64,000 nucleotides of DNA from Spizellomyces punctatus DAOM BR117. Taxonomy: Eukaryota. The stretch lies in assembly GCA_000182565.2 (NCBI GenBank), contig KQ257462.1. The stretch is one strand, 5' to 3'. The position numbers and the translations under genes are program-made. The notes below the pieces were generated by a model that saw only the letters and a list, made by a program, of their open reading frames with translations, had not been told where the DNA came from and searched no databases. Shown here one piece after another: positions 4,332 through 62,401 of this stretch; position 1 is the first letter of the stretch; every line of letters begins with the position of its first letter.

Positions 4332-4473
4332 TGTGGCTGGTGCTTTCATTTAACCATTTCTGACTGTTGTCGTTGCCATGTCCCTCTGAACGCAGCAGAC
4401 CAAGACGAACAAATCACGATTGCTTTCATACTGGGCAAGACGGCCACTAGGTCAAGTTTGCATGTCCCCAAGC
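4332..4473. repeat. Diverged direct repeat copy A (partner at 7670-7849)
   Basis: Shares an exact 20-mer ACGGCCACTAGGTCAAGTTT (4440-4459 = 7816-7835) plus flanking similar blocks (TGTGGCTGG..CATTTAACCATTT..TCGTTGCCATGTC; GACGAACAA.TCA.GATTGC.TTCA). Confidence 0.8.
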
Positions 4474-4553
4474 ATCCTGCGCATGGGCAGATATTTATAG
4501 ATATTGTATGTAATAGTTACATTTCAGAAAAAAAGAATCCGATTGAAATCATA

Positions 4554-4581
4554 GTGCGGAGCCGGTGGACTTTGGCACTAG
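4554..4581 (+). repeat. Left TIR of Fanzor copy 1
   Basis: 28-bp perfect inverted match to 6860-6887. Confidence 0.95.
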
Positions 4582-4664
4582 TACAGTGATTGCAACCAAT
4601 TCAATCATAATTTTACTCGATTTAGGCACATGAACTATGGTTCGATATGGTTCGATGCAAACGA

Positions 4665-4804
4665 TGCTCCACCATTGAAAAACGGGTCCAATATGTGCGG
4701 CAATAAATGATTGAATATTCTGCAGTTGCCACACGGGTCCAATATGTGCGGCAATAAATGATTGAATATTCTGCAGTTGCTCCACCATTGAAAAACGGGT
4801 CCAA
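4665..4804. repeat. Internal duplications in the 5' region of Fanzor copy 1
   Basis: 48-bp identical copies at 4682-4729 and 4733-4780; 27-bp identical copies at 4665-4691 and 4778-4804. Confidence 0.9.
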
Positions 4805-4825
4805 CGTGCGCAGTTGTCATATTTC

Positions 4826-4832
4826 TATATAA
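4826..4832 (+). promoter_or_regulatory. Putative TATA box of Fanzor copy 1
   Basis: TATATAA about 70 nt before the ATG at 4898. The same motif lies upstream of the copy 2 ATG (35842-35848, minus strand). Confidence 0.5.
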
Positions 4833-4897
4833 CCCCCCCCCCATATCATTCTCTGCCCATTTCCCAGGCGTTCATCCATTTTTCTATTCCAATCATC

Positions 4898-6796
4898 ATG
4901 CCACCAAACAAGAAGCAAAAACTCGACAATCGACCTACCTGTCTGCATTCATGCAACAAGACTTCCTTTGCAAAGGCTTTCTTACCTAATGAGACCTACC
5001 GGCAGCGTCTTCTAGATTACATCGCCATCATCCATCAACTCGCCGACCATGCTTCCCACGCGCTGAAATTCTATCTCCTTTCAGCACCAACCTTTCCCAC
5101 GGTAAATGAAGATACAATCGAAGGCATCCTGTATCTTCTCAACAAGGGGGAGGCTTGGCATCCAAGAAAGGAAGCGAAGAAGGCATGGCGGGATAGTTTG
5201 CTGCCATACGTTCAACGGTACTGCCAAATCGTCGGCTTCGTTCATCCAAATCTACGAGGCGAGCAGCAGTCAATCAATTACCTGACAGCGAGTATGATGA
5301 CAAACCTGAAAGTCAACGTTCAAGAGCATTTTATGACGATGCTGCTCCGATATATCAATCTACGGCTGGACGTGAAGGGACGGAAAGGGCAATTTCCTCC
5401 AAAGAGTGAAGTGCGGAAAGCTTTCTTTGCTCGGCTACGCTACTTGAAGTCGATTTTCCTTTTTGATGTCGTGCCCGAGTCACTGGATGACTTGACTGCT
5501 GAAGAGAGTGAGCTTCTAGAAGAGATGTGGTCATTGGATCTCCCATTCCTTCCCAACAATCCCCTTGCCTACGCCATTGTTGCTGATCCGATGTCATTTT
5601 TTCCCGCGTACTGCAAACTCTCTGGGCTGTATGAACGATATGGCTTCCGACGGTTCAGTGCAATACCTCTGCGCCGCTCGCTCATTCAAAGTCACGTGCG
5701 AATCGACACCATCATCCTGTACCAGCATATCCTTTGCATCACACGTCCAGAAGCAGAAGCGGTCGAAAAGGATGATCTGTGGTTGCGGGTCTGTAATCTA
5801 TGTACCAAGGCTTTTCGGTCTCGCCGCGGTATGCAGTTTGAAGGCTCGATCACGACGGATGGTACCTCGGTGTCGGTTTACTTGAAACACCCTGATGCCG
5901 ACAAGTATGGAAGGCGCGGGGGTGGGAAAAAGTCAGCAAAAACGATGGAGGCGGAGGTTAAAGCGGTATATGTGGAGAACAACTTGCCTGCTTGTCGAGC
6001 AGCAGAGAACATTGTCGTTATCGACCCAAACAAGCGCGACATTCTCTACTGCCAAGACAGCAATGGTGCGACAATGTTTCGCTACACCGCCAATCAACGC
6101 TGCAGGGAGACTGGCAGCCGGCAATTTGCAAAGAGACGAGAAGCAATGAAGAAGGAAGCGGGAATTGACCTCATAGACTCACGAATACCATCCCCCAAGA
6201 CGATGAATCTCATGGACTTCATGCGTTACCTTCTCGTTCGCCGCGCTGATTGGGATCGTCGCAAGGAGTTCTACTCCCATCCTGCCCACACGCGGTGGAA
6301 GTGGCACTCTTTCATCAATCGGCAGCGAAGTGAATCGGACCTCATAAGCAACATGCGCGACAAGTTTGGGAACTTCACCGTTGTGATGGGTGATTGGAGC
6401 GATGCCGGCCGAACTGCAAAATTTCAGACCTCATCAAAGACAAAAGGCTGGCGCATTCTGTTCAGGCGCAATCGCATCAACTGCTTCCTGATTGATGAAC
6501 ACAAGACCTCATCTGTTTGCCCTCGCTGTTTGGCCTCATACAACGACTTCCTTGAAAAGGACTTCAAACAACGACCTCATTCAAGACCTTGGCGGCGACG
6601 AGAAGGCAAGGTTGAAGATGTCCATGGCTTGCTGGGTTGTACCAACCCTAACTGTTTGCAGCAAGACTGGACGACAATGCGCTACTGGAATCGAGATACG
6701 CTGGCAACGTGCAATATGCTGACAATCGTGCAATCAATGTTGGATGGGCACGGTAGACCAGAAAGGTTCAGCAGAAGCGTTCCAGCTATAGCGTAG
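4898..6796 (+). CDS. Fz1: Fanzor1 RNA-guided DNA endonuclease (TnpB-like, SpuFz1 family), 632 aa
   Basis: Intronless. ATG at 4898 (MPPNKKQK, NLS-like) aligns with the start of copy 2. RuvC-I VVIDPNKRD (D376), RuvC-II LIDEHKTS (E534), zinc finger CPRC..CTNPNC, RuvC-III WNRD (D600). Confidence 0.95.
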   Translation: MPPNKKQKLDNRPTCLHSCNKTSFAKAFLPNETYRQRLLDYIAIIHQLADHASHALKFYLLSAPTFPTVNEDTIEGILYLLNKGEAWHPRKEAKKAWRDSLLPYVQRYCQIVGFVHPNLRGEQQSINYLTASMMTNLKVNVQEHFMTMLLRYINLRLDVKGRKGQFPPKSEVRKAFFARLRYLKSIFLFDVVPESLDDLTAEESELLEEMWSLDLPFLPNNPLAYAIVADPMSFFPAYCKLSGLYERYGFRRFSAIPLRRSLIQSHVRIDTIILYQHILCITRPEAEAVEKDDLWLRVCNLCTKAFRSRRGMQFEGSITTDGTSVSVYLKHPDADKYGRRGGGKKSAKTMEAEVKAVYVENNLPACRAAENIVVIDPNKRDILYCQDSNGATMFRYTANQRCRETGSRQFAKRREAMKKEAGIDLIDSRIPSPKTMNLMDFMRYLLVRRADWDRRKEFYSHPAHTRWKWHSFINRQRSESDLISNMRDKFGNFTVVMGDWSDAGRTAKFQTSSKTKGWRILFRRNRINCFLIDEHKTSSVCPRCLASYNDFLEKDFKQRPHSRPWRRREGKVEDVHGLLGCTNPNCLQQDWTTMRYWNRDTLATCNMLTIVQSMLDGHGRPERFSRSVPAIA

Positions 6797-6814
6797 CGTA
6801 GATTGGTTAGATTA

Positions 6815-6904
6815 GCTTATCCGAACCGGTTGTCGCCGGTTCATTCCCTGGTGCGGGTGCTAGTGCCAAAGTCCACCGGCTCCGCACTAAGTAATAGGGG
6901 GAGG
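6815..6904 (+). ncRNA. Predicted Fanzor omegaRNA, copy 1 (scaffold ~6815-6889, guide ~6890-6904 AGTAATAGGGGGAGG)
   Basis: 75-nt block conserved with copy 2 (8 substitutions). Hairpin GAACCGG-ttgtcg-CCGGTTC (6823-6842); GTGCGGG can pair with TCCGCAC. Similarity stops abruptly after ..CCGCACTA. Ends are inferred. Confidence 0.85.
6860..6887 (-). repeat. Right TIR of Fanzor copy 1
   Basis: CTAGTGCCAAAGTCCACCGGCTCCGCAC, the inverted copy of 4554-4581. Confidence 0.95.
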
Positions 6905-7669
6905 TGTTCTAGTCAGCAACCCTTTCAAAATCTTCAAGGGAGTACTCCTCAGTGTTCGTCATACTAACCCAACGGGATTCCTCCGGTATATGAATCATCT
7001 TCACAATATCATCTGCAAACGTAACATTAAGTTGACACTTTGCAAATCTGTTTTTTCTCCCGGCTACACGTTGGAAGATTCTGTCAATGCGTCCTATGTA
7101 TTGGGTAGGTTGGAAGTAGTCCAAGGTAACATTCTGAGCTATGCGTTAGCAACTCAGACAGATGTACAAGCCCCTTTAAAACTGGAAAATACCTTGTTAG
7201 AGGGGTCTTGAAAACCCCTTGCCGAGATTTTGAAGAGTTCTCCCATGGGTTCGACGCAAAGGCCAATATAGCTCCCCTGATGCTCGTTTTGCTTTGGTTT
7301 AAATAGCAGATACATGGTCAACGTTTTGAAAGTAGCTGGCTGAGCCATTGTCTCAGGTGACGGCTGCAGGGCACCATTTTCATCAAGAGACATGCCCTGA
7401 AACGTAGTAGATAGCGACATTCTGAGTTGGTTGAACCGAGCGGAGTTCTCTTAGCGATCTCACACGCTGATGACTGACGGTGACCAAGCTGTATAACTGA
7501 ACGCTCCGAACGACAATGGACACAGGCTATTGAAATATCGTCCAAGCAAACTGGAAGCAGTCAATAAACAGGCTTCCAGCCGATGTTGTACCTGACGCTG
7601 GCAGACTCTCAGTGTTCTGGCAGATCAACGTAAAGACATTTCGTCCGTTTCTGAAAGCCCCAATGTTCC

Positions 7670-11371: not shown

Positions 11372-11923
11372 GTTGCGCTATTGATTCATATACCTATCCT
11401 GTCTTCCCATGCATAATTACACGAATCACACATTGTTCTGGTACACTTAATTTTTGGACATTTCAAATTGAAGCGATATTATTGTGGAAGGGAACTGTTG
11501 ATTATCCATGTACAGTTTCCGTCCAAATCCAAAGTTAATACGCATATCTGCTGTCTGCGCTACGAACCAACGAGTAGGGAAATTGTGGAGCAGGCGAGTG
11601 AGGTGATACAAAATGATCTCGCAAGGTCAAGCTCGTTGAGTTCGGTAGCCCATTCGTAAATCTTGTATTGATGCAAGAGCTGGGAACCATTCCCTCATAT
11701 ATATAAAGGATTATGAATGTTCCTTTTCAGTGACAGGGCTGACATAACGCTCTACGGTCATCAAGAGAAAACCAAATCACGGTACTCTGTGATTTCAAAG
11801 ATAATCTTCTGATGTACTAAAGATGACAGACGGCCCCAAGTGTCTCCAGCTATGCAGATACCATCCGTAACAAGATTTGGCGGGTCGAATCAACAAAAAA
11901 CATTTTCTTCTCCGTAACCCAAG

Positions 11924-12005
11924 TGCACGCTGTGAGATTCGAACTCACGCCTCTTTCGAGACTGGAACTTGAGACCAGCTCCTTAGACCGCTCGGACAAG
12001 CGTGC
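11924..12005 (-). tRNA. tRNA-Leu (anticodon CAA), intronless, long variable arm
   Basis: Minus strand reads GCACGCTTGTCCGAGCGGTCTAAGGAGCTGGTCTCAAGTTCCAGTCTCGAAAGAGGCGTGAGTTCGAATCTCACAGCGTGCA: acceptor stem, D loop, CT-CAA-GT anticodon loop, TTCGAAT T loop. A T6 Pol III terminator lies at 11895-11900. Confidence 0.95.
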
Positions 12006-33798: not shown

Positions 33799-33888
33799 TT
33801 AAACGTTTATATCTAGTGCGGAGCCGATGGGTATTGGCACTAGCACCCGCACCAGGAATTGAACCGGCGACAACCAGCTCGGATAAGC
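33799..33888 (-). ncRNA. Predicted Fanzor omegaRNA, copy 2 (scaffold ~33888-33814, guide ~33813-33799 GATATAAACGTTTAA)
   Basis: Minus strand reads GCTTATCCGAGCTGGTTGTCGCCGGTTCAATTCCTGGTGCGGGTGCTAGTGCCAATACCCATCGGCTCCGCACTA, colinear with the copy 1 scaffold. Ends are inferred. Confidence 0.85.
33816..33843 (+). repeat. Right TIR of Fanzor copy 2
   Basis: 28-bp perfect inverted match to 35925-35952. Confidence 0.95.
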
Positions 33889-33901
33889 TAATCTAACCAA
33901 T

Positions 33902-35791
33902 CTACGCTACGGCTGGAACACCCCTGCTGAACACCTCTGGTCTACCGTGCCCATCCAACATTGATTGCACGATTGTCAGCATATTACAGGTTGCCAGCGT
34001 ATCTCGGTTCCAGTAGCGCATCGTCCAGGCTTGCTGACAGTTAGGGTTGGTACAACCCAGCAATCCATGGACTTTTTCAATCTTGCCTTCGCGACGGCGC
34101 CAAGGTCTTGAATGAGGTCGTGTTTTGAAGTCCTTTTCAAGGAAGTCATCAGATGAGGCCAAACAGCGAGGGCAGACAGATGAGGTCTTGTACTCGTCGA
34201 GAAGGAAGCAGTTGATCCTGTTCCGCTTAAAGAGGGTGCGCCAACCTTTCGTCTTTGATGAGGTCTGAAATCTCGCAGTTCGACCGGCGTCGCTCCAATC
34301 ACCCATCACAATGGTGAAGTTTTCGCCGTACTTGTTGCGCATGTTGGATATGAGGTCTGATTCGCTCTTCTGACGGTTTATGAATGCGTGCCATTTCCAT
34401 CGAGTATGAGCAGGGTGGGAGTAGAACTCCTTTCGACGATCCCAATCAGCGCGGCGAACGAGAAGGTAACGCATGAAGTCTATGAGGTTCATCGTCTTGT
34501 GGCTTGGGATACGTGATTCTATGAGGTCAATACCGCCAGCTTTCATCCGCTGCCGTTCTTTTGCAAATCGACGGCTTCCAGTCTCCATGCAGCGTTGATT
34601 GGCGGTGTAACGGAAGATGGTGCCCTTGTTGTCTTGGCAGTAGAGAATGTCGCGCTTGTTTGGATCGATAACGACAATGTTCTCTTGACAAGCAGATAAG
34701 TTGTTTTCCACATACAGCGCCTTCACCTCAGCTGCTAGAGCCTTTGCTGACTTTCTCGCTCCGCGCTTTCCGTACTTGTCAGCTTCTGGGTGCTTTAGGT
34801 ATACAGACACCGAGGTTCCGTCTGTCGTGATCGAGCCTTCAAAATGCATACCACAGCGAGACCGAAAAGCTTTGGTACGTAGATTACAGACGCGCAACCA
34901 TAAATCGACCTTCTCTACGGCTTCTGCTTCTTGGCGGGTGATGCAGAGGATGTGGGCGTAGAGAATGACCGTGTCGATGCGAATATGGCTTTGGATGAGA
35001 GAGCGGCGCAGAGGTATCGCGCTGAACTGTTGAAAACCTTGCTGCTCGAACAACTTTGACAGTCGGCAGTATGCAGGAAAGAAGGACATCGCGTCGATGG
35101 CAATGAGGTAGGCAAGCGGCTTGTCTTGATCAGGAAATGGCAGGTTAAGTGTCCAGATCTCTTCTAAAATCTCGTTTTCAAGAATGCTCAAGTCATCCAG
35201 TGATTCTGGCATAGTTTCGAAAAGGAAAACCGACTTCAAGTAGTGTAGCTGAGTAAAGAAAGCTTGCCGCGCATCGCTTTTCAGTGGCAGTCGCTGCTTC
35301 TGTCCCTTCACGTCGAGCCGCAGATTGATATACCGAAGGAGCATCTGCATGAAATGCTCTTGAACGTTGACTTTCAGGTTCGTCATCATACTCGCTGTCA
35401 GGTAATTGACTGATTGCTGCTCGCCTCGTAGATTTGGGTGAACAAAGCCGACGATTTGGCAGTACCGTTGAACATATGGCAGCAAACAATCCCGCCATGC
35501 CTTCTTTGCTTCCTTTCTTGGATGCCAAGCCTCTCCTTTGTTGAGAAGATAGAGAATTGCTTCGATTGTATCTTCATTTACCGTGGGAAAGGTTGGTGCA
35601 GATAGGATGTAGAATTTGAGAGCGTGGGAAGCGTGGTCAGCGAGTTGATGGATGATGGCGATGTAATCTAGAAGACGCTGCCGGTAGGTCTCGTTTGGCA
35701 AGAAAGCTTTTGCAAAGGAAGTCTTGTTGCAGGTATGTAAGCAAGTAGGTTTGTCGAGTTTTTCAAGCTTTTGCTTTTTCTTTGGCGGCAT
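33902..35791 (-). CDS. Fz1: Fanzor1 RNA-guided DNA endonuclease (TnpB-like, SpuFz1 family), 629 aa
   Basis: Intronless; MPPKKKQK NLS-like start. RuvC-I VVIDPNKRD (D376), RuvC-II LLDEYKTS (E533), CPRC..CTNPNC zinc finger, WNRD (D597). Colinear paralog of 4898-6796. Confidence 0.95.
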   Translation of the reverse strand: MPPKKKQKLEKLDKPTCLHTCNKTSFAKAFLPNETYRQRLLDYIAIIHQLADHASHALKFYILSAPTFPTVNEDTIEAILYLLNKGEAWHPRKEAKKAWRDCLLPYVQRYCQIVGFVHPNLRGEQQSVNYLTASMMTNLKVNVQEHFMQMLLRYINLRLDVKGQKQRLPLKSDARQAFFTQLHYLKSVFLFETMPESLDDLSILENEILEEIWTLNLPFPDQDKPLAYLIAIDAMSFFPAYCRLSKLFEQQGFQQFSAIPLRRSLIQSHIRIDTVILYAHILCITRQEAEAVEKVDLWLRVCNLRTKAFRSRCGMHFEGSITTDGTSVSVYLKHPEADKYGKRGARKSAKALAAEVKALYVENNLSACQENIVVIDPNKRDILYCQDNKGTIFRYTANQRCMETGSRRFAKERQRMKAGGIDLIESRIPSHKTMNLIDFMRYLLVRRADWDRRKEFYSHPAHTRWKWHAFINRQKSESDLISNMRNKYGENFTIVMGDWSDAGRTARFQTSSKTKGWRTLFKRNRINCFLLDEYKTSSVCPRCLASSDDFLEKDFKTRPHSRPWRRREGKIEKVHGLLGCTNPNCQQAWTMRYWNRDTLATCNMLTIVQSMLDGHGRPEVFSRGVPAVA

Positions 35792-35924
35792 GATGATATC
35801 TGTGGGAAAAGATGAAAGCCTGGGAAAATGGGCACGACAACTTATATAGGATTTTTTGGATCAAACCATAGTTCATGAGTCTAAATCGAGTAAAATTATG
35901 ATTAAATTGGTTGGAATCTATGTA

Positions 35925-35952
35925 CTAGTGCCAATACCCATCGGCTCCGCAC
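35925..35952 (-). repeat. Left TIR of Fanzor copy 2
   Basis: Inverted copy of 33816-33843. Confidence 0.95.
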
Positions 35953-38900
35953 TATGATCTGCGTCAGCCATCCCTCTCTATTGTAATATCTTGGTATTTT
36001 GGATCGAACTTGCCAGTGCTCTTGCTTGCAGTGCTTCAGTTTACTGGCCTTTCTTCTTCTTACGGACTTACTAGGAACTCACTGATGTTATGCTGCAATA
36101 AACCATCTTTATTCTTTGCCGCTGCAATACGACTAGTTCCATGGGTCTTCTAATTAAAACACTACATGGGTACTAACTTAAAGCGGCCTTAACTTCATTG
36201 GTAAATAATTCCGGACGCTGACCGAGGCACAGGAACAAAACCTTGAGGTGGCCTGAGTGAGCACCATCGATCCATTCGGGAATGGTAAAGAAGTCGAAGA
36301 GATATGTCGAACAGAAGAGTGACTATCAACCAATCATTTAACCAAACAGTAAGATGAATGCTTTACCAGAGTTTGCCAGAGTGGTTACGAACTTTCCGAC
36401 GTCTGAGAGATCTTTTGAATCGCAGGATCCGAGGAGAGGGTATCATTTTGGACCAGCCGATCGAAGATGTCCGAGTTCGTTACTGGGCAGAGAAAAGAAC
36501 CCTTGCGCAATCTGCCCTAAAAGATCGCAGTCAAGAAGAGCAACTGTTCGAAGGATATGAGACGCAAGGAAATACATACGCGAAACCCATTACAGAAGAA
36601 GGAAACGTCCTTGGCGATTTCGTCGAGTCTCTTCGTCTGTGCAACCTGGTAGAGATTGCTCTTTTCCGTTGTTCTTGTTGCGTGCATGTGGGACTCTCAC
36701 AATCTGTCATCAGTGGGACACCTTGCTCCAGAAACAATCTATGGACAGAGGAAAGCGGGAGAACAAGCACGACGTCCAAGTCATGTCATACATCTGCAGG
36801 GCGAAACTTTGATCGGATTCATAGGAATCGATCGAATGCTGCCCACCACGACTAGCCAAAGCCGCCAATATGTCTAGCTCTCTTAGTTACGGGCATTTAG
36901 GCTATTTTGACCAAAATCAACTGAGGGCAAGTCTTTTGCGATCCTGCGTATGCGAACAACCGCCGTTCGTCACTCGAGGTCAACAGGGTACTTTCGAAAA
37001 TAACTGCATTGTAGTTTTGTTTTCCCTTGACAATATTGATACAAGAGTCAATTGTGATTTCGATGCCTGTCTTGGGATATGCAAAGGGATCTGATACCTT
37101 TTTTTTATCAATTCGAGTATCCCTTTTCCGCCCACCATGTCCGAATCCGGTTAACATCGCTGAGCCTTATCGGTATGCCGTTACATTTTCTGCAGTTGTA
37201 CGCATGTAAGAAGGAAGAAAGCAATAATAAGAAACCGACCCTTCTCGCGACAGGTTCTATGGTCATCCGCAATCTCCCGACCGAGCCGCTTCGCAGTCGT
37301 ATTGGCACTGTTTGTCGCCGGCATGACGGACTTCAAGGACCTCGAGGTATCCAAGATTGAGCACAGAAATAAACGAAATTGACAGGAACAAAGGTCAGAT
37401 GATAAATGACATGACCGGCGTTGATGCAGTGTTCTTGTGTTAGACCTGAAGAAGACGGACGAAGACCGCATATTCGAGGCACTTGCATCTTTCCCACATA
37501 TAAGACCGTCTTTCATGAAGGGCGAATGGTCCGCGACTCTACCGTTTTGCAGTTGCCAGTTACCCCGGGTGCGCATGTTGCTTCATTGGCGCTCGAAGTA
37601 AGAAACAAAACAATACTGGAAGCAGTGTAGACTGTTTTCTTGCACTTCGTCAGGTTGATCCTTCTCCATCACCTTGTACCAGAACGCCGGCAAACTCCCG
37701 CTCATTTCTTCACTGTGGGCTGCCCTGCTTACCCCCTAGCCCCAAACGCCAACAAAATGCCATCATATTACCGATGATGAATTCCTCACCGCAACGGGCT
37801 TCGCTGAAGCTTGCAACTGTACATTTAACATATCACCTACAATCCGGTCTCACTCAAATAAGGTTACGCCGATTTCAATTCGTTGCGGAATTTTCAGTGA
37901 CTATCAAATCGGCGTTTGAGTAAAGCGAGGGAATAGGGATTCCACATGCATCCTGGAATCATATCGTTTTCTTTTACCAAGACTCAATTGTAGTGTGCTG
38001 GAAAACCGGCAAATCATTAGTGAAGGCCGCTCCAACGTTATGGTGAGGACGTTCTGACCATGACAGGCGAGATGCCCTTGTCGTTGGAAGAGTGGTTTAA
38101 ATAAGTGCGCCATATATTCATTTCCACTACTGATACGGAATGATGCAAGGCTGGGGAAGAAGTCAGTGGTTTATAGGTGTAGATATTATTACATCAGACC
38201 ATTAGATGCTGCTTGTGTGGGAAACCTTCAGTGTGCAGCCTACGTTAAAGGGACATTCTGAGCTGTTCCTGCAAAGATGCGGCATCCATCTTTCATCCGT
38301 TCACTTGCTGCGTTCTACCAAGTTTATCTCAACTGACGCAAGGTGAGACCACATAGCACATTGTTCTGTCGTCGAAGTGGGCAATTACCATGTCAGCGCG
38401 GTGGACCTTTCCTCTTTTCTATGTCATCCAGGTTGGGAGACTTGCAATGTATCCGTTTATATTAAGATACAGCAGAGCATCTATTACCACACTAGCTTAG
38501 GGCTGGAAACATGCATGTCGTTCTACCGAAAGTATCCCTGGGCTGTTTTCCAATTCTAGATGCGAAGACTACACTTTCATTTCCCTTCTCATTGTAACAA
38601 GCACCCATCTCATCAATCTATTCGTCCCTCAACCAAAGTGCCTTTAACTCTAACCCTTTCCCCACCTCCGGTAAATATCCACACGTGGAAGATACAGTCG
38701 TCGGAATGCTCAAGCATCTCCACAGAGCCTTCAACGTCCACATCAAATCTAGTGTTTCTAGAATGTCGACAGAGAGGTCAAGCTGCATAGTGGCCTTGAA
38801 ACCGAGTGAATGAACCGCCGACCCTTTCGAAGCCTTGTTGGGGCGTGAGTCATTTTTTCCCTCTGGAACTGGTCGCTGGTGGGTCGGTAGACCAGTTAGG

Positions 38901-59418: not shown

Positions 59419-62401
59419 ATGTCTGCCTCAACTGCATTGACGACATGGCGGTTCCCTCCACGCCCAGGAGTTGGAGCCTCTGGGAGAAACATCCAAGTGC
59501 GAGCAAACTTTTTCCCTGTCATGACCCTTCCCGGGCAGAATATCCACCACTACGATGTCAACATTACTCCCGACGTCCCGCCAGCAAAGAATAGGAGAAT
59601 TTATCAGTTGTGGGAGGACGAACAGTTATTGAGCGGGGCGTTGAACGGTATCAGACCTGTGTTTGATGGAAGAAAGAATGTGTTTGCGGCTAAAGCGCTA
59701 CCCATTGCTCCGGGGGAAGTGGCGTTTAACATTGATTATTTTGACGATGACGATAGTAAAAAGTAAGTACAGCACACGACCGATGCTGCATTTACTCCTC
59801 TTGGAGTCTTGCAACGTTTTTGCTCCTATTTGCATCACACTACCGGCTTCGATGGATTCGACAACTTCTGATTGGTGTCATTTTCAGGCGCGGGCCGAAA
59901 AAGTTCACATTGATCATCAAAAAGGTTGGCGAAATAAATATGCAGAAATTGTCAGCCTTCCTCGATGGGCGACTAGCTGACACGCCGAATGACGCCATTA
60001 TGGCTCTTGATATCCTCCTCCGTCACCGTCCTTCCCTTACTTACACCACAATTGGAAGGTGCTTCTATACGCCGGATTCCGCTGCGAGTATTGCCAATGG
60101 TGCCCAGTTGTGGCAAGGGTTCCATCAAAGTATCAGGCCAACCCGGGGGCAGATGCTAATCAATTTGGATGTATCTGCAACAGCCTTCTATCAGCCTGGT
60201 AAATACTCAACTAGATAATTTCAATGTAAGCGATAAGCTGACATTCGTTTTCCAAGGCCCTGTTATTGAGATGGTCGCCAAGATTCTTGGTAGACACAGT
60301 GGCGCGGATTTACGTGCACCACTAAGTGACCGGGACAGACTGAAGGTAGAAAAGGTGCTGAAAGGACTGAAGATTGTCGTCACCCATCGTGGACAGATCC
60401 GCCGCAAATTCCGAATTACAAAGATCACATCCACCCCCGCTAACCGTACCATGTTCTCCCTGGAGAGCACTGGTCTCGAAAACTCTGTTGCTGGATATTT
60501 CCAAGCCAAGTACAATCACCAGCTGTACTTTCCTCACCTCCCCTGCCTTGTTGTTGGTGACCCATCACGACAGGTATTCCTACCAATGGAGGTCTGTGAC
60601 ATTGTGCCCGGTCAAAGACACTTGAGGAAATTGAATGAGCGCCAGGTTCGCATACTTTGTTCATGACACCGTTGGCTCAGTACTTACCGCTACCCACCTG
60701 CAGACGGCGGAAATGATCAAGTTCACTTGCCAGCCACCTCACGTTCGATCCAATAAGATTTCAGCCGGTATTACCATTCTTCAGCAAAGAGACAATGATT
60801 ATCTCCGCGAGTTTGGTGTGCAGATTGGTCATGAAATGACAATTGTCAATGCACGTGTACTACCTGCTCCCGCTATTTCTTACCACCCAGCTTCAAAAGA
60901 GCCCGTCATCACTCCTCGGGAGGGAGCCTGGAACCTTCGCGACAAGATGGTTGCTCAGGGTGTTACAGTTCGATCCTGGTCTGTGATTGCATTTGGTCAG
61001 GAAACTGATTACCCTGTCGCTGCCATTCAAAAGTTTGTCACGCTTCTCGTGCAAACCTGCGAGGAGTGTGGTGTGTTCATTCAGAATCGCCAACCCCCAA
61101 TTTCCTACGCGAACCCCCTGGGCAATGTGGAGAAGACTCTGATTGATGCTTACATGTTAGCTGGAAATTCCTTCCAGGAGCGTCCTCAGATGGTTCTGTG
61201 CATCTTGCCCAACACGGGTGTGCCACTTTACGCTGAGATCAAACGGGTGTCTGACACCATTATTGGAGTCGCCACACAGTGTATACAGGCTAAGCACATG
61301 TTTGCGGCCAAAAGGCAATACTGCGCGAATGTATGTTTGAAGATGAATGTTAAGCTGGGTGGTATGAACAGTTACTTGTCAAATACTCAACTGCCGTTCG
61401 TGAGTGAGCGGCCGACCATTATTCTTGGGGCAGATGTTACGGTGGGTATTGTATTCTTCTACGGTCTTGAACATCAAGTTCTAAATTTATTTTTTTAGCA
61501 TCCGGCCCCTGGCTCTGCCTCCAACCAATCGATTGCGGCCCTTGTTGGATCCATGGATGCACAATGCTCACGGTTTGCCGCGGCGATCCGTGTCCAGAAA
61601 GGACGTCAAGAAGTTATCCAGGACCTCTCAGGCATGGTGATTGAGCTCCTCAAGACCTTTTACCAGACCTGCGGAGCCAAGCCAGAGCGTATTGTCTTTT
61701 ATCGGGATGGTGTATCTGAGGGACAGTTTGCTGAAGTTTTGCGATGCGAGGTAGAGGCTATCCGAAGGGCCTGTGTCTCTCTCGAACCGACGTACAGACC
61801 GACTGTGACGTTTGTCGTTGTTCAAAAACGTCATCATGCAAGATTTTTCCCGATCCGAAAGGAGGACTCGGACCGGAGTGGAAATGTCTTGCCAGGGACA
61901 GTGGTTGAAACGGGTGTGACGCATCCCTCCGAATTCGATTTCTACCTCTGCTCGCATCCGGGTCTCCAAGGGACGTCCAAACCCACTCACTACCACGTGC
62001 TGCATGATGAGAACCGATTTTCCCCCGACGCGCTCCAAGAGCTTACTTACCGCCTCTGCTACCTGTACTGCCGTGCCACGCGAAGTGTTTCCGTATGTCC
62101 ACCCGCTTATTACGCGCATTTGGTTGCTGCTCGAGCGCGATTCCACGCAACGGGCGAAGGATGGAGTGAGAGTTCAAGTGAAGGAAGTGTGTCAAGCAAT
62201 GGGAGCGCCCAGACTGTACCGAATGTGGCTGCTGTCCCTCTTGGTGGTATGATTGGTGTGCCGAATGGTAATGGGATTCCTGTGGTGGCGCCAGCGGCGG
62301 CGGGGGTTGGTAAAAAGTGTGCTGTGAAGGAGGGTGCGGTGCGAATGATGAATTACGGCGTTGTGAAGGAGGAGTTGACTAAAGTCATGTATTTCATGTG
62401 A
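59419..62401 (+). CDS. AGO: Argonaute (multi-exon)
   Basis: N domain (RANFF, HHYDV), L1/PAZ ([22 protein letters not shown]), MID ([17 protein letters not shown]) and PIWI with [22 protein letters not shown]. Confidence 0.97.

What the first reader, a model, noticed from the sequence alone, without database searches (positions are those of the whole stretch)
4550..6904. Complete eukaryotic RNA-guided endonuclease locus (Fanzor1), copy 1
Seen: an intronless 632-aa ORF in an intron-rich genome, with an NLS-like N-terminus, an intact split RuvC triad (D376/E534/D600) and a CxxC..CxxxxC zinc finger. It is enclosed by perfect 28-bp TIRs and a TA duplication and followed by a structured conserved 3' block. 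Known: this is the architecture of Fanzor1 (TnpB-derived OMEGA nucleases), including the RuvC-II Glu sitting just before the zinc finger while the usual position reads VMGDW. The class is already described (SpuFz1 family); this copy is a sequence variant whose activity is inferred.
Basis: partly seen in the sequence, partly recalled or inferred. Interest (0 to 1): 0.92.

Follow-up and report, generated by a model that had tools for sequence, protein, structure and literature searches.

The report
Intact copy of known Fanzor1 transposon
This is an intact copy of SPu-1, the already well-studied jumping gene of the soil fungus Spizellomyces punctatus that encodes the RNA-guided DNA cutter Fanzor1, so it is real but not new.

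Summary
Window 4552-6889 (+) is a 2,338-bp element with perfect 30-nt inverted repeats (28 nt plus TA) and the dinucleotide CA just upstream. It carries one intact 632-aa ORF (4898-6796) and a conserved, folded 75-nt block at the right end (6815-6889).

The protein aligns end to end with the solved Spizellomyces punctatus Fanzor1 (SpuFz1, PDB 8GKH) at E = 0, about 86% identity. All 4 catalytic/metal residues and all 6 TAM-reading residues are kept. The 3' block folds into the published omegaRNA architecture.

The exact protein is already in NCBI, UniRef and EukProt. Its family (SPu-1 elements) was described in 2013, and in 2023 it was shown biochemically and structurally to be an omegaRNA-guided dsDNA endonuclease with TAM CATA. 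That study counted 42 loci, 19 of them full-length, in this genome.

A second intact copy lies at 33814-35954 (-). dN/dS between the two copies is 0.14. Activity and expression of this particular copy remain inferred, because the RNA reads I laid were ambiguous.

Two side observations are unexplained: changes mirrored in both inverted repeats between the copies, and abundant RNAs from other loci that share only the protein-contacting part of the scaffold.

The parts
4550..4551 (+). CA dinucleotide upstream of the left inverted repeat. Together with TA 4552-4553 it reads CATA, the published SpuFz1 TAM.
   Evidence: Sequence. Copy 2 has the same CA at 35956-35955. The conserved CA is reported in PMC10432273 section 7; TAM CATA is in the passages.
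4552..4581 (+). Left inverted repeat: 30 nt perfect, or TA plus a 28-nt TIR; extends to 4584 with one mismatch.
4585..4646 (+). Subterminal 5' non-coding block shared with copy 2 (about 7 differences in about 65 nt, my count).
   Evidence: Alignment printed.
4647..4824 (+). Repeat-bearing stretch of about 178 nt, present in copy 1 and absent from copy 2. It holds a 51-nt unit twice (4675-4776) and a 34-nt unit three times.
   Evidence: A contig of run X1 shows a variant that skips 4704-4762 (table 5).
4826..4832 (+). TATATAA, a TATA-box-like motif 66 nt before the ATG, shared with copy 2. Its promoter role is inferred.
   Evidence: Sequences.
4898..6796 (+). Fanzor1 ORF, 632 aa plus stop (protein P0001).
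6815..6889 (+). omegaRNA scaffold, 75 nt: stem-loop 1 (nt 9-28), 6-nt linker (nt 29-34), stem 2 with an 8-nt loop (nt 35-75).
   Evidence: Fold. The architecture and the named nucleotides A29, C32, C34, U35, G37, C40, G70, A72, A75 of PMC10432273 section 10 all match by position.
6860..6889 (+). Right inverted repeat (30 nt), which forms the 3' half of stem 2 of the scaffold.
6890..6904 (+). Flank that would supply the 14-15-nt guide of this copy (AGTAATAGGGGGAGG). It is preceded here by ACTA, not CATA.
   Evidence: Sequence; guide length from PMC10432273 section 7.
33814..35954 (-). Second intact SPu-1 copy, 2,141 bp: ORF 35791-33902 (629 aa, P0002), scaffold 33888-33814, guide flank 33813-33799, CA at 35956-35955.

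Best explanation
Window 4552-6889 is one of the full-length SPu-1 (Spu-1) elements of Spizellomyces punctatus, the founding Fanzor1 transposon family.

Its single intronless gene encodes a TnpB-derived nuclease. By near-identity with the solved and assayed SpuFz1, this nuclease binds an RNA transcribed from the element's own right end: a 75-nt scaffold (6815-6889) plus about 15 nt of the adjoining host DNA (6890-6904) as guide. It then cuts double-stranded DNA that carries 5'-CATA next to a match to that guide, using the split RuvC site D376/E534/D600 with N378.

At this locus the logic is self-consistent. The occupied site shows ACTA before the guide match and so should be immune. A site without the element would read ...ATCA-TA-AGTAATAGG..., that is CATA followed by the guide match, and would be cut. 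This is the TnpB-like way of favouring retention or re-copying of the element.

Shown here: anatomy, identity, conservation of every named catalytic and TAM residue, the fold of the scaffold, and purifying selection.

Shown by others on a paralogue about 86% identical: RNA binding, TAM, cleavage and structure.

Inferred: that this copy is expressed and active, the biological role, and what enzyme moves the element.
For: Identity with the solved enzyme:
- E = 0, full-length alignment to SpuFz1 8GKH. By my hand count of the identity line, 543 of 631 query residues are identical.
- catalytic/metal residues 4 of 4, TAM-reading residues 6 of 6, and named RNA/DNA-contact residues 33 of 38 are identical in copy 1 (34 of 38 in copy 2).

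Element ends:
- perfect 30-nt inverted repeats, not expected by chance.
- CA upstream in both copies, so CATA at the left junction and ACTA at the right junction.

Scaffold:
- the predicted fold reproduces the published stem-loop 1, 6-nt linker and stem 2 with 8-nt loop. All 9 nucleotides the paper names in the linker and stem 2 (A29-A75) fall on the right letters; the 5' and stem-loop-1 nucleotides do not (see the Against line).
- three of the eight scaffold differences between the copies fall in helices (A>G and C>U in stem 1, C>U in stem 2). Each turns a Watson-Crick pair into G-U, which keeps the helix only on the sense RNA strand.

Selection and public record:
- dN/dS 0.138 (bootstrap 0.106-0.18) at dS 0.66 between the copies.
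- the exact protein is in NCBI, UniRef and EukProt. A cluster mate of copy 2 is named S. punctatus DAOM BR117 SPPG_09432.
- (papers): 42 Fz loci (19 full-length), 30-nt inverted repeats plus CA, 75-nt scaffold plus 14-15-nt guide, TAM CATA, cleavage and cryo-EM. SPu-1 was described in 2013 as about 2,100 bp, 633 aa, 33-bp TIRs and putative TA duplications.
Against: Nothing argues against family membership except that profile searches are blind to it. Pfam gives no OrfB_Zn_ribbon or other hit at E <= 1, NCBIfam gives none, and phmmer against PDB does not reach TnpB or Cas12 at E <= 1.

Against activity of this particular copy:
- Five of 38 named contact residues differ from the assayed enzyme (T22S, R415Q, K483R, S598T, M607T in SpuFz1 numbering), and the residue matching E498 is absent.
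- In RNA run X18 (about 6% of the run read), only low depth (4-23) lies on 4661-5182. At the listed variant places many of those reads carry letters of other copies (for example 3 of 3 at 5124 and at 5176, 4 of 6 at 4909).
- In the same run, depth is 0-1.8 over 5183-6574.
- 1,783 of the 1,807 reads laid fit only partly.
- No read set here shows the 88-90-nt RNA of this locus.

Two smaller points. The first nucleotides named in the paper (U5, C6, C7; U16-G22) are offset by one from copy 1, so the assayed locus differs by small indels in the scaffold 5' part. In the 90-nt fold the G-run of this copy's guide can pair with the linker (minimum-energy structure only, not the centroid).
Confidence: 0.87

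Rival explanations
1. The copy is intact in sequence but inert in the cell. It could be transcriptionally silenced, or weakened by its own substitutions. It would then be a recent, not yet decayed passenger rather than a working nuclease locus.
For:: almost no RNA reads over 5183-6574, and the few reads on the 5' part largely carry other copies' letters. R415Q and four other changes at RNA/DNA-contact residues, and loss of the E498 position; possible guide-linker pairing.
Against: All catalytic and TAM residues are kept, and the ends are perfect. dN/dS of 0.14 shows selection on the protein along the lineages leading to both copies. Only about 6% of one ordinary RNA-seq run was read, and such libraries lose 90-nt RNAs. 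The paper reports that paralogues share only about 82% identity yet keep the catalytic sites.
Confidence: 0.12
2. On the ends: the element is not a TA-duplicating (Tc1/mariner-like) insertion with 28-nt TIRs. Instead it would insert 3' of a pre-existing CATA without duplication (IS200/IS605-like), or be a 30-nt-inverted-repeat element whose TA belongs to the repeat.
For: Both copies sit behind the same ATCATA. PMC10432273 treats the repeat as 30 nt plus a conserved CA. No transposase lies between the repeats here, or in any Spu-1 element according to the paper's discussion.
Against: PMC3627910 reads the TA as a putative target-site duplication. TA on both sides is what a Tc1/mariner-type enzyme acting in trans would leave. 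A TA must remain at an empty site for the CATA TAM to sit next to the guide match. That rules out only the version in which the whole 30-nt-ended unit leaves with both TAs (my inference).
Confidence: 0.35
3. A host gene domesticated from a Fanzor and no longer part of a mobile element.
For: It sits among ordinary genes (kinase, hydrolase, WD40, CDC50, SDR, Argonaute) and is under purifying selection.
Against: Perfect inverted repeats, a second bounded copy 29 kb away with different flanks, DNA read piles many times the flank depth (ChIP library X19), and 42 loci reported in the genome.
Confidence: 0.01

Closest known systems
SpuFz1 / SPu-1 (Spu-1) element of Spizellomyces punctatus DAOM BR117 (PDB 8GKH; PMC10432273; PMC3627910)
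   Same: Same family and almost certainly the same genome. It shares the full-length alignment, the catalytic and TAM residues, the zinc finger, 30-nt inverted repeats with CA upstream, the 75-nt scaffold architecture, and a single intronless ORF of about 630 aa in an element of about 2.1-2.3 kb.
   Different: It is not the assayed paralogue: about 86% identity (632 against 638 aa), five changed contact residues, small indels, and about 178 nt of extra repeat-bearing 5' non-coding DNA. Which numbered locus of the paper's Supplementary Data it is could not be checked, because supplements are closed.
Ghost Spu-1 loci (PMC10432273)
   Same: Same kind of ends, the same CA, and an omegaRNA at the right end.
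   Different: Ghost loci lack the ORF (about 550 nt inside) and their inverted repeats differ at seven positions. This locus has the ORF and the Fz-type repeat with the 8-nt stem-2 loop. No ghost locus was found in the window.
Parasitella parasitica Fanzor1 (PDB 9CF0)
   Same: Fanzor1 with the same domain order; matched at E 9e-48 over two stretches.
   Different: Distant in sequence and much longer.
ISDra2 TnpB (IS200/IS605), the prokaryotic ancestor type
   Same: Works alike: a right-end-encoded omegaRNA whose guide is the flank, a TAM equal to the motif at the left junction, a RuvC plus zinc-finger nuclease, and a self-immune occupied site.
   Different: No sequence-level hit here. According to the paper it has the canonical rather than the relocated RuvC-II glutamate, a pseudoknotted omegaRNA and a partner TnpA. 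SPu-1 has no known transposase.
Tc1/mariner elements carrying Fanzor1 (PGv-1, PUl-4 and others; PMC3627910)
   Same: TA at both ends and terminal inverted repeats around a Fanzor1 gene.
   Different: Those elements carry, or share TIRs with, a mariner transposase. None is seen here.

Membership tests
Fanzor1, SPu-1/SpuFz1 family | Full-length sequence similarity to the solved SpuFz1 | tested here: met
   8GKH at E = 0, 1246 bits, query 2-632 on chain 396-1032. One search gives the same for copy 2.
Fanzor1, SPu-1/SpuFz1 family | RuvC catalytic/metal residues (D383, N385, E541, D606 in SpuFz1) | tested here: met
   D376, N378, E534, D600; 4 of 4 in both copies.
Fanzor1, SPu-1/SpuFz1 family | Relocated RuvC-II glutamate, with an inert residue at the canonical place | tested here: met
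   VMG498DW at the canonical place and E534 36 residues further on, just before C541. The feature is defined in PMC10530073.
Fanzor1, SPu-1/SpuFz1 family | Zinc finger CxxC...CxxxxC in the NUC domain | tested here: met
   C541PRC544 and C581TNPNC586, aligned to the same cysteines of 8GKH.
Fanzor1, SPu-1/SpuFz1 family | 30-nt inverted repeats with a conserved CA upstream of the left one | tested here: met
   definition.
Fanzor1, SPu-1/SpuFz1 family | 75-nt omegaRNA scaffold ending at the right end, with the published two-stem architecture | tested here: met
   In silico only: fold against the description. The wobble-type changes between copies fit the sense strand.
Fanzor1, SPu-1/SpuFz1 family | TAM-reading residues (R96, Q129, Q130, N133, R291, Y345) and CATA at the left junction | tested here: met
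   6 of 6 residues in both copies; CATA in both copies.
Fanzor1, SPu-1/SpuFz1 family | omegaRNA of about 88-90 nt expressed from this locus | tested here: inconclusive
   the reads on 6820-6853 come mostly from other loci, the library is not a small-RNA library, and its strand convention is not calibrated.
Fanzor1, SPu-1/SpuFz1 family | omegaRNA-guided, TAM-dependent dsDNA cleavage by this copy | not testable with these tools
   Shown for a paralogue in PMC10432273.
TnpB / Pfam OrfB_Zn_ribbon (PF07282) | Profile match to the Pfam or NCBIfam TnpB models | tested here: not met
   only YhcG_C at E 0.14; none. The link to TnpB rests on the published structure comparison.
Tc1/mariner transposon | DDE transposase inside the element, or a TA duplication proven by an empty site | tested here: not met
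   The Fanzor ORF is the only long frame; the other three ORFs of 80-106 aa between the repeats lie inside it in other frames and were not searched. TA is present on both sides, but no empty site is available, so the duplication is unproven.
Ghost Spu-1 locus | Inverted repeats and omegaRNA but no Fz ORF | tested here: not met
   An intact ORF is present.

The most novel reading that the evidence does not exclude
The two ends of SPu-1 may be kept identical by a copying step in its still unknown transposition cycle. The inverted repeats of copy 1 and copy 2 differ at 4 of 30 positions (repeat nt 14, 18, 19, 20). Every one of these differences is mirrored in the other arm, so each copy keeps a perfect pair.

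These positions lie in the part of omegaRNA stem 2 that the nuclease does not need (nt 56-58 and 62 of the scaffold). The nuclease therefore cannot be what keeps them matched. A fold-back or panhandle intermediate in which the left end pairs with the right end, or repeat-to-repeat conversion, would do it. Either would be a clue to what moves Fanzor1 elements in a genome where no transposase has been tied to them.
Probability: 0.12. Interest if true: 0.5.

Novelty: already known. Interest (0 to 1): 0.12.

Why it matters
As a discovery it adds nothing. This element family in this fungus is the prototype from which Fanzor1 was named (2013), and on which RNA-guided cleavage, the TAM, the omegaRNA and the cryo-EM structure were established (2023-2024).

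Its value is as a positive control for the scan: a reader of raw sequence recovered a complete eukaryotic RNA-guided nuclease locus with correct residues and boundaries.

Two minor practical points follow. Natural paralogues sample substitutions at engineered positions: copy 2 carries arginine at the position of C310, one of the activity-raising changes in the published SpuFz1-v2. And the mirrored changes in the inverted repeats give a cheap genome-wide test that bears on how these elements move.

Tried and rejected
Profile and RNA-family searches:
- Pfam and NCBIfam on the protein: no family. Only YhcG_C at E 0.14, far below its cut-off.
- Rfam: 0 matches in the whole window at gathering scores, and 0 at E <= 10 on the 3' ends of both copies.
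- I had wondered whether the scaffold is tRNA-derived. Copy 2 has a motif like a tRNA B-box, GGTTCAATTCC, and a D-loop-like stretch lies upstream. ARAGORN and Rfam give no support, and copy 1 breaks the motif, so I rejected the idea.

Searches for related loci:
- Ghost or partial SPu-1 loci in the window: only chance-level short matches and no further inverted pair of that kind.
- Whole genome of the window: not held.
- Metagenome contigs: 0 exact matches to the inverted-repeat pattern. For the protein, 593 pattern hits, none confirmed as a relative.

Flanks and targets:
- Flank ORFs on both sides: no Pfam family. The minus-strand frame that stops 20 nt from the right end is therefore not shown to be a gene, and I could not use it to calibrate the strand of the RNA library.
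- TAM plus guide in the window: only the occupied site itself, with ACTA.
- The continuation seen in the RNA reads after 6853: not in the window.

RNA evidence:
- No RNA holder was listed for the element.
- RNA contig run X22: nothing laid.

Other:
- Earlier notes of this scan: none on this genome. The eight notes found by words concern giant-virus and phage Fanzor/TnpB loci and relics, and did not change my reading.
- I did not run structure prediction, fold search, complex prediction or the large protein searches. About 86% identity to a solved structure made them unnecessary.
Full report
**What is there**

Window 4552-6889 (+) is bounded by a perfect 30-nt inverted repeat, 4552-4581 and 6860-6889. 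The pattern occurs twice in the window against 0 expected in 100 shuffles, and the pair extends to 33 nt with one mismatch. CA at 4550-4551 precedes it, so the left junction reads CATA and the right junction reads ACTA followed by AGTAAT....

Inside lies one long frame, ATG 4898 to the stop at 6794-6796, 632 aa.

In the whole 64-kb window a search for inverted repeats of 20 nt or more within 8 kb returns three pairs. Two of them are the ends of this element and of a second copy.

**Identity**

phmmer against all PDB chains gives Spizellomyces punctatus Fanzor1 (8GKH and six further entries) at E = 0 and 1246 bits. The alignment covers query residues 2-632 against SpuFz1 residues 2-638. By my hand count of the printed identity line, 543 of 631 query residues are identical, about 86%. 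The next hit is Parasitella parasitica Fanzor1 at 9e-48. Nothing else is meaningful, and neither TnpB nor Cas12 is reached at E <= 1. Pfam and NCBIfam find no family.

I took the offsets from that alignment and checked the letters by script. All 4 catalytic/metal residues named in the structure paper (D383, N385, E541, D606) are identical in copy 1, as are all 6 TAM-reading residues (R96, Q129, Q130, N133, R291, Y345) and 33 of 38 named RNA/DNA-contact residues. The five that differ are T22S, R415Q, K483R, S598T and M607T. The residue matching E498 is absent.

The exact 632-aa sequence is already in NCBI, UniRef, nr and EukProt, on a 717,070-bp contig. The 629-aa protein of the second copy clusters at 90% with SPPG_09432 of S. 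punctatus DAOM BR117. The window is therefore almost certainly from that sequenced strain.

**What is known**

Bao and Jurka (PMC3627910, passages) found the first eukaryotic TnpB-like protein in this fungus. They described SPu-1 as about 2,100 bp, with one ORF of 633 aa, 33-bp TIRs, putative TA duplications and 17 full-length copies.

Saito et al. (PMC10432273; section 7 read in full, passages of other sections) report the following:
- 42 Fz loci in the genome, 19 of them full-length, plus 134 ORF-less 'ghost' loci.
- Proteins sharing about 82% identity.
- 30-nt inverted repeats with a conserved CA upstream.
- An 88-90-nt RNA made of a 75-nt scaffold plus a 14-15-nt guide.
- TAM 5'-CATA, with every single TAM mutation abolishing cleavage.
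- Cuts 16-21 nt into the target, and a 2.7-A structure.

They found no transposase inside any Spu-1 element. The relocated RuvC-II glutamate is described for Fanzors in PMC10530073 (abstract and passages). The paper's locus lists are in supplements that I could not open, so I cannot say which numbered loci these are.

**The RNA part**

The 75 nt 6815-6889 fold at -32.7 kcal/mol (z = -3.41; 1 of 200 shuffles as good). The fold has eight free nucleotides, an 8-bp stem-loop (nt 9-28), six free nucleotides (29-34), and a long stem 2 (35-75) with an 8-nt loop.

The paper describes stem-loop 1, a 6-nt linker A29-C34, and stem 2 from U35 to A75 with an 8-nt hairpin loop. Its named nucleotides A29, C32, C34, U35, G37, C40, G70, A72 and A75 fall on the same letters in copy 1. 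The 5'-most named nucleotides are offset by one, so the assayed locus differs by small indels there.

Copy 2 gives the same dot-bracket. The two scaffolds differ at 8 of 75 positions (my count), against 44% raw difference at synonymous sites. Three of the eight fall in helices, and each converts a Watson-Crick pair to G-U (A>G and C>U in stem 1, C>U in stem 2). That fits an RNA read from the sense strand. With two sequences this is an indication, not a test. Rfam has no family for it.

**The second copy and selection**

tblastn and blastn of the element against the window find one more copy, 33814-35954 on the minus strand, 83% identical in DNA. It has an intact 629-aa ORF, its own perfect 30-nt inverted repeat and the same CA upstream. 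It scores like copy 1 against 8GKH.

Nei-Gojobori counts between the two ORFs give dS 0.66, dN 0.091 and dN/dS 0.138, with a bootstrap range of 0.106-0.18. The protein has therefore been under purifying selection along these lineages.

**How it most likely works**

By identity with the assayed paralogue, the protein binds the RNA made from its own right end and uses the adjoining 15 nt of host DNA as guide. It cuts double-stranded DNA carrying CATA next to a match.

The locus shows the expected self/non-self logic directly. At the occupied site the guide match is preceded by ACTA, two letters away from the TAM. A site lacking the element but keeping one TA would read CATA followed by the guide match. 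This is my inference. It is the TnpB-type retention or re-copying scheme that the paper's discussion also considers. What moves the element is unknown.

**Expression**

No listed holder of the element is on record as RNA. I laid one stranded RNA-seq run of the same species label (X18, about 6% of it read, 60-nt reads, at least 97% alike), an RNA contig set (X22), a ChIP DNA run (X19) and the best holder (X1) on 4400-7000.

- X22 gave nothing.
- X19 covers all 30 bins. Its piles reach about 475 in conserved ORF parts, against about 15-49 in the flanks, as a multi-copy family would give. It is a ChIP library, so this is only rough.
- In X18, 1,807 reads were laid, and 1,783 of them fit only partly.
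- Depth is 4-23 on 4661-5182 with the first mate on the minus strand. Many of those reads carry other copies' letters (4 of 6 at 4909, 5 of 10 at 4984, 6 of 15 at 5050, 3 of 3 at 5124 and at 5176).
- Depth is 0-1.8 across 5183-6574.
- Depth is about 7 on 6575-6748 and 38.7 in the unique right flank 6923-7000, with the first mate on the plus strand.
- A pile of about 1,420 reads lies on 6820-6853.

Of that pile, 1,029 reads run on after 6853 into a sequence unlike the element, 819 have unlike letters before 6820, and 615 of 1,420 show G at 6825, as copy 2 does. These reads therefore come from other loci.

I could not calibrate the strand of the library. The minus-strand frame that stops at 6909-6911, 20 nt from the right end, has no Pfam match. 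The flank reads may therefore be either a sense read-through from the omegaRNA region or the 3' end of a minus-strand neighbour. Expression of this copy is thus neither shown nor excluded.

**Things that remain odd**

First, the inverted repeats of the two copies differ at four positions, and each difference is mirrored in the other arm, so both copies keep perfect pairs. These positions lie in the distal stem 2 that the nuclease does not contact. Recombination or conversion between the repeats is an ordinary cause (PMC3004938, search listing and start of abstract only). A fold-back intermediate is the bolder reading.

Second, the abundant reads share exactly scaffold nt 6-39. The 3' break of the shared stretch, after nt 39, falls where the paper's dispensable distal stem 2 (C40-G70) begins. 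Nt 6-39 hold the 5' nucleotides, stem-loop 1, the linker and the base of stem 2, which are the 5' contacts the paper names; A72 and A75 are contacted too but lie beyond the break. By eye, the continuation matches the Fz-type repeat at only 9 of 24 positions. The reads are therefore not obviously the published ghost class, whose repeats differ at 7 of 30. The continuation is not in the window.

**Verdict**

This is a known element of a known family in the genome where that family was defined. Novelty: already known. Interest: low. The unresolved items are side leads, not properties that make this locus new.

Noticed in passing
window 33814-35954 (-), CA at 35956-35955: Second intact SPu-1/Fanzor1 copy: 629-aa ORF at 35791-33902, own perfect 30-nt inverted repeats, 83% DNA identity to copy 1, different flanks and therefore a different guide (33813-33799).
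   Followed up: yes
window 34879-34877 (copy 2 residue R305) and V295: Copy 2 naturally carries arginine at the position of SpuFz1 C310. C310R is one of three changes in the published higher-activity SpuFz1-v2. Copy 2 also has valine at the position of D300, and copy 1 keeps C and D.
   Followed up: partly
window 4552-4581 / 6860-6889 against 35954-35925 / 33843-33814: The inverted repeats of the two copies differ at 4 of 30 positions, and every difference is mirrored in the other arm. Each copy therefore keeps a perfect pair, which means the two ends evolve in concert.
   Followed up: partly
window 6820-6853: About 1,420 RNA-seq reads of run X18 cover only this 34-nt part of the scaffold (nt 6-39). 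1,029 of them continue after 6853 into sequence unlike the element, and a contig of X1 shows the same continuation. They come from other loci of unknown kind that share the protein-contacting part of the omegaRNA.
   Followed up: partly
window 4647-4824: Copy 1 has about 178 nt of extra 5' non-coding DNA that copy 2 lacks. It is built of direct repeats: a 51-nt unit twice, a 34-nt unit three times, and a 10-nt tandem duplication at 4637-4656. A contig of X1 shows a shorter variant, so the repeat number varies among copies.
   Followed up: partly
window 6909-7145 (-): A minus-strand open frame stops at 6911-6909, only 20 nt beyond the right end of the element. If it is the last exon of a gene, the element sits in that gene's 3' untranslated region. 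It has no Pfam match. RNA depth in 6923-7000 is 38.7 in one direction.
   Followed up: partly
window 6844-6849 with 6897-6902: In the 90-nt fold the G-run of copy 1's guide pairs with the linker and the first base of stem 2 (scaffold nt 30-35). This appears in the minimum-energy structure (-38.2 kcal/mol) but not in the centroid. It might lower guide availability for this copy.
   Followed up: no
window 60635-62401 (+): Two abutting open frames with Argonaute linker-2, Mid and Piwi domain matches. An Argonaute gene lies in the same window as two RNA-guided nuclease transposons; only the first frame was scanned.
   Followed up: no
window 11923-12005 (-): tRNA-Leu (CAA), 83 nt, the only tRNA gene in the window.
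   Followed up: no
window 33866-33856 (-) and 6838-6848 (+): The scaffold of copy 2 holds GGTTCAATTCC, which looks like a tRNA-gene B-box (consensus recalled, not from a call); copy 1 reads GGTTCATTCCC. Neither Rfam nor ARAGORN supports tRNA ancestry.
   Followed up: yes
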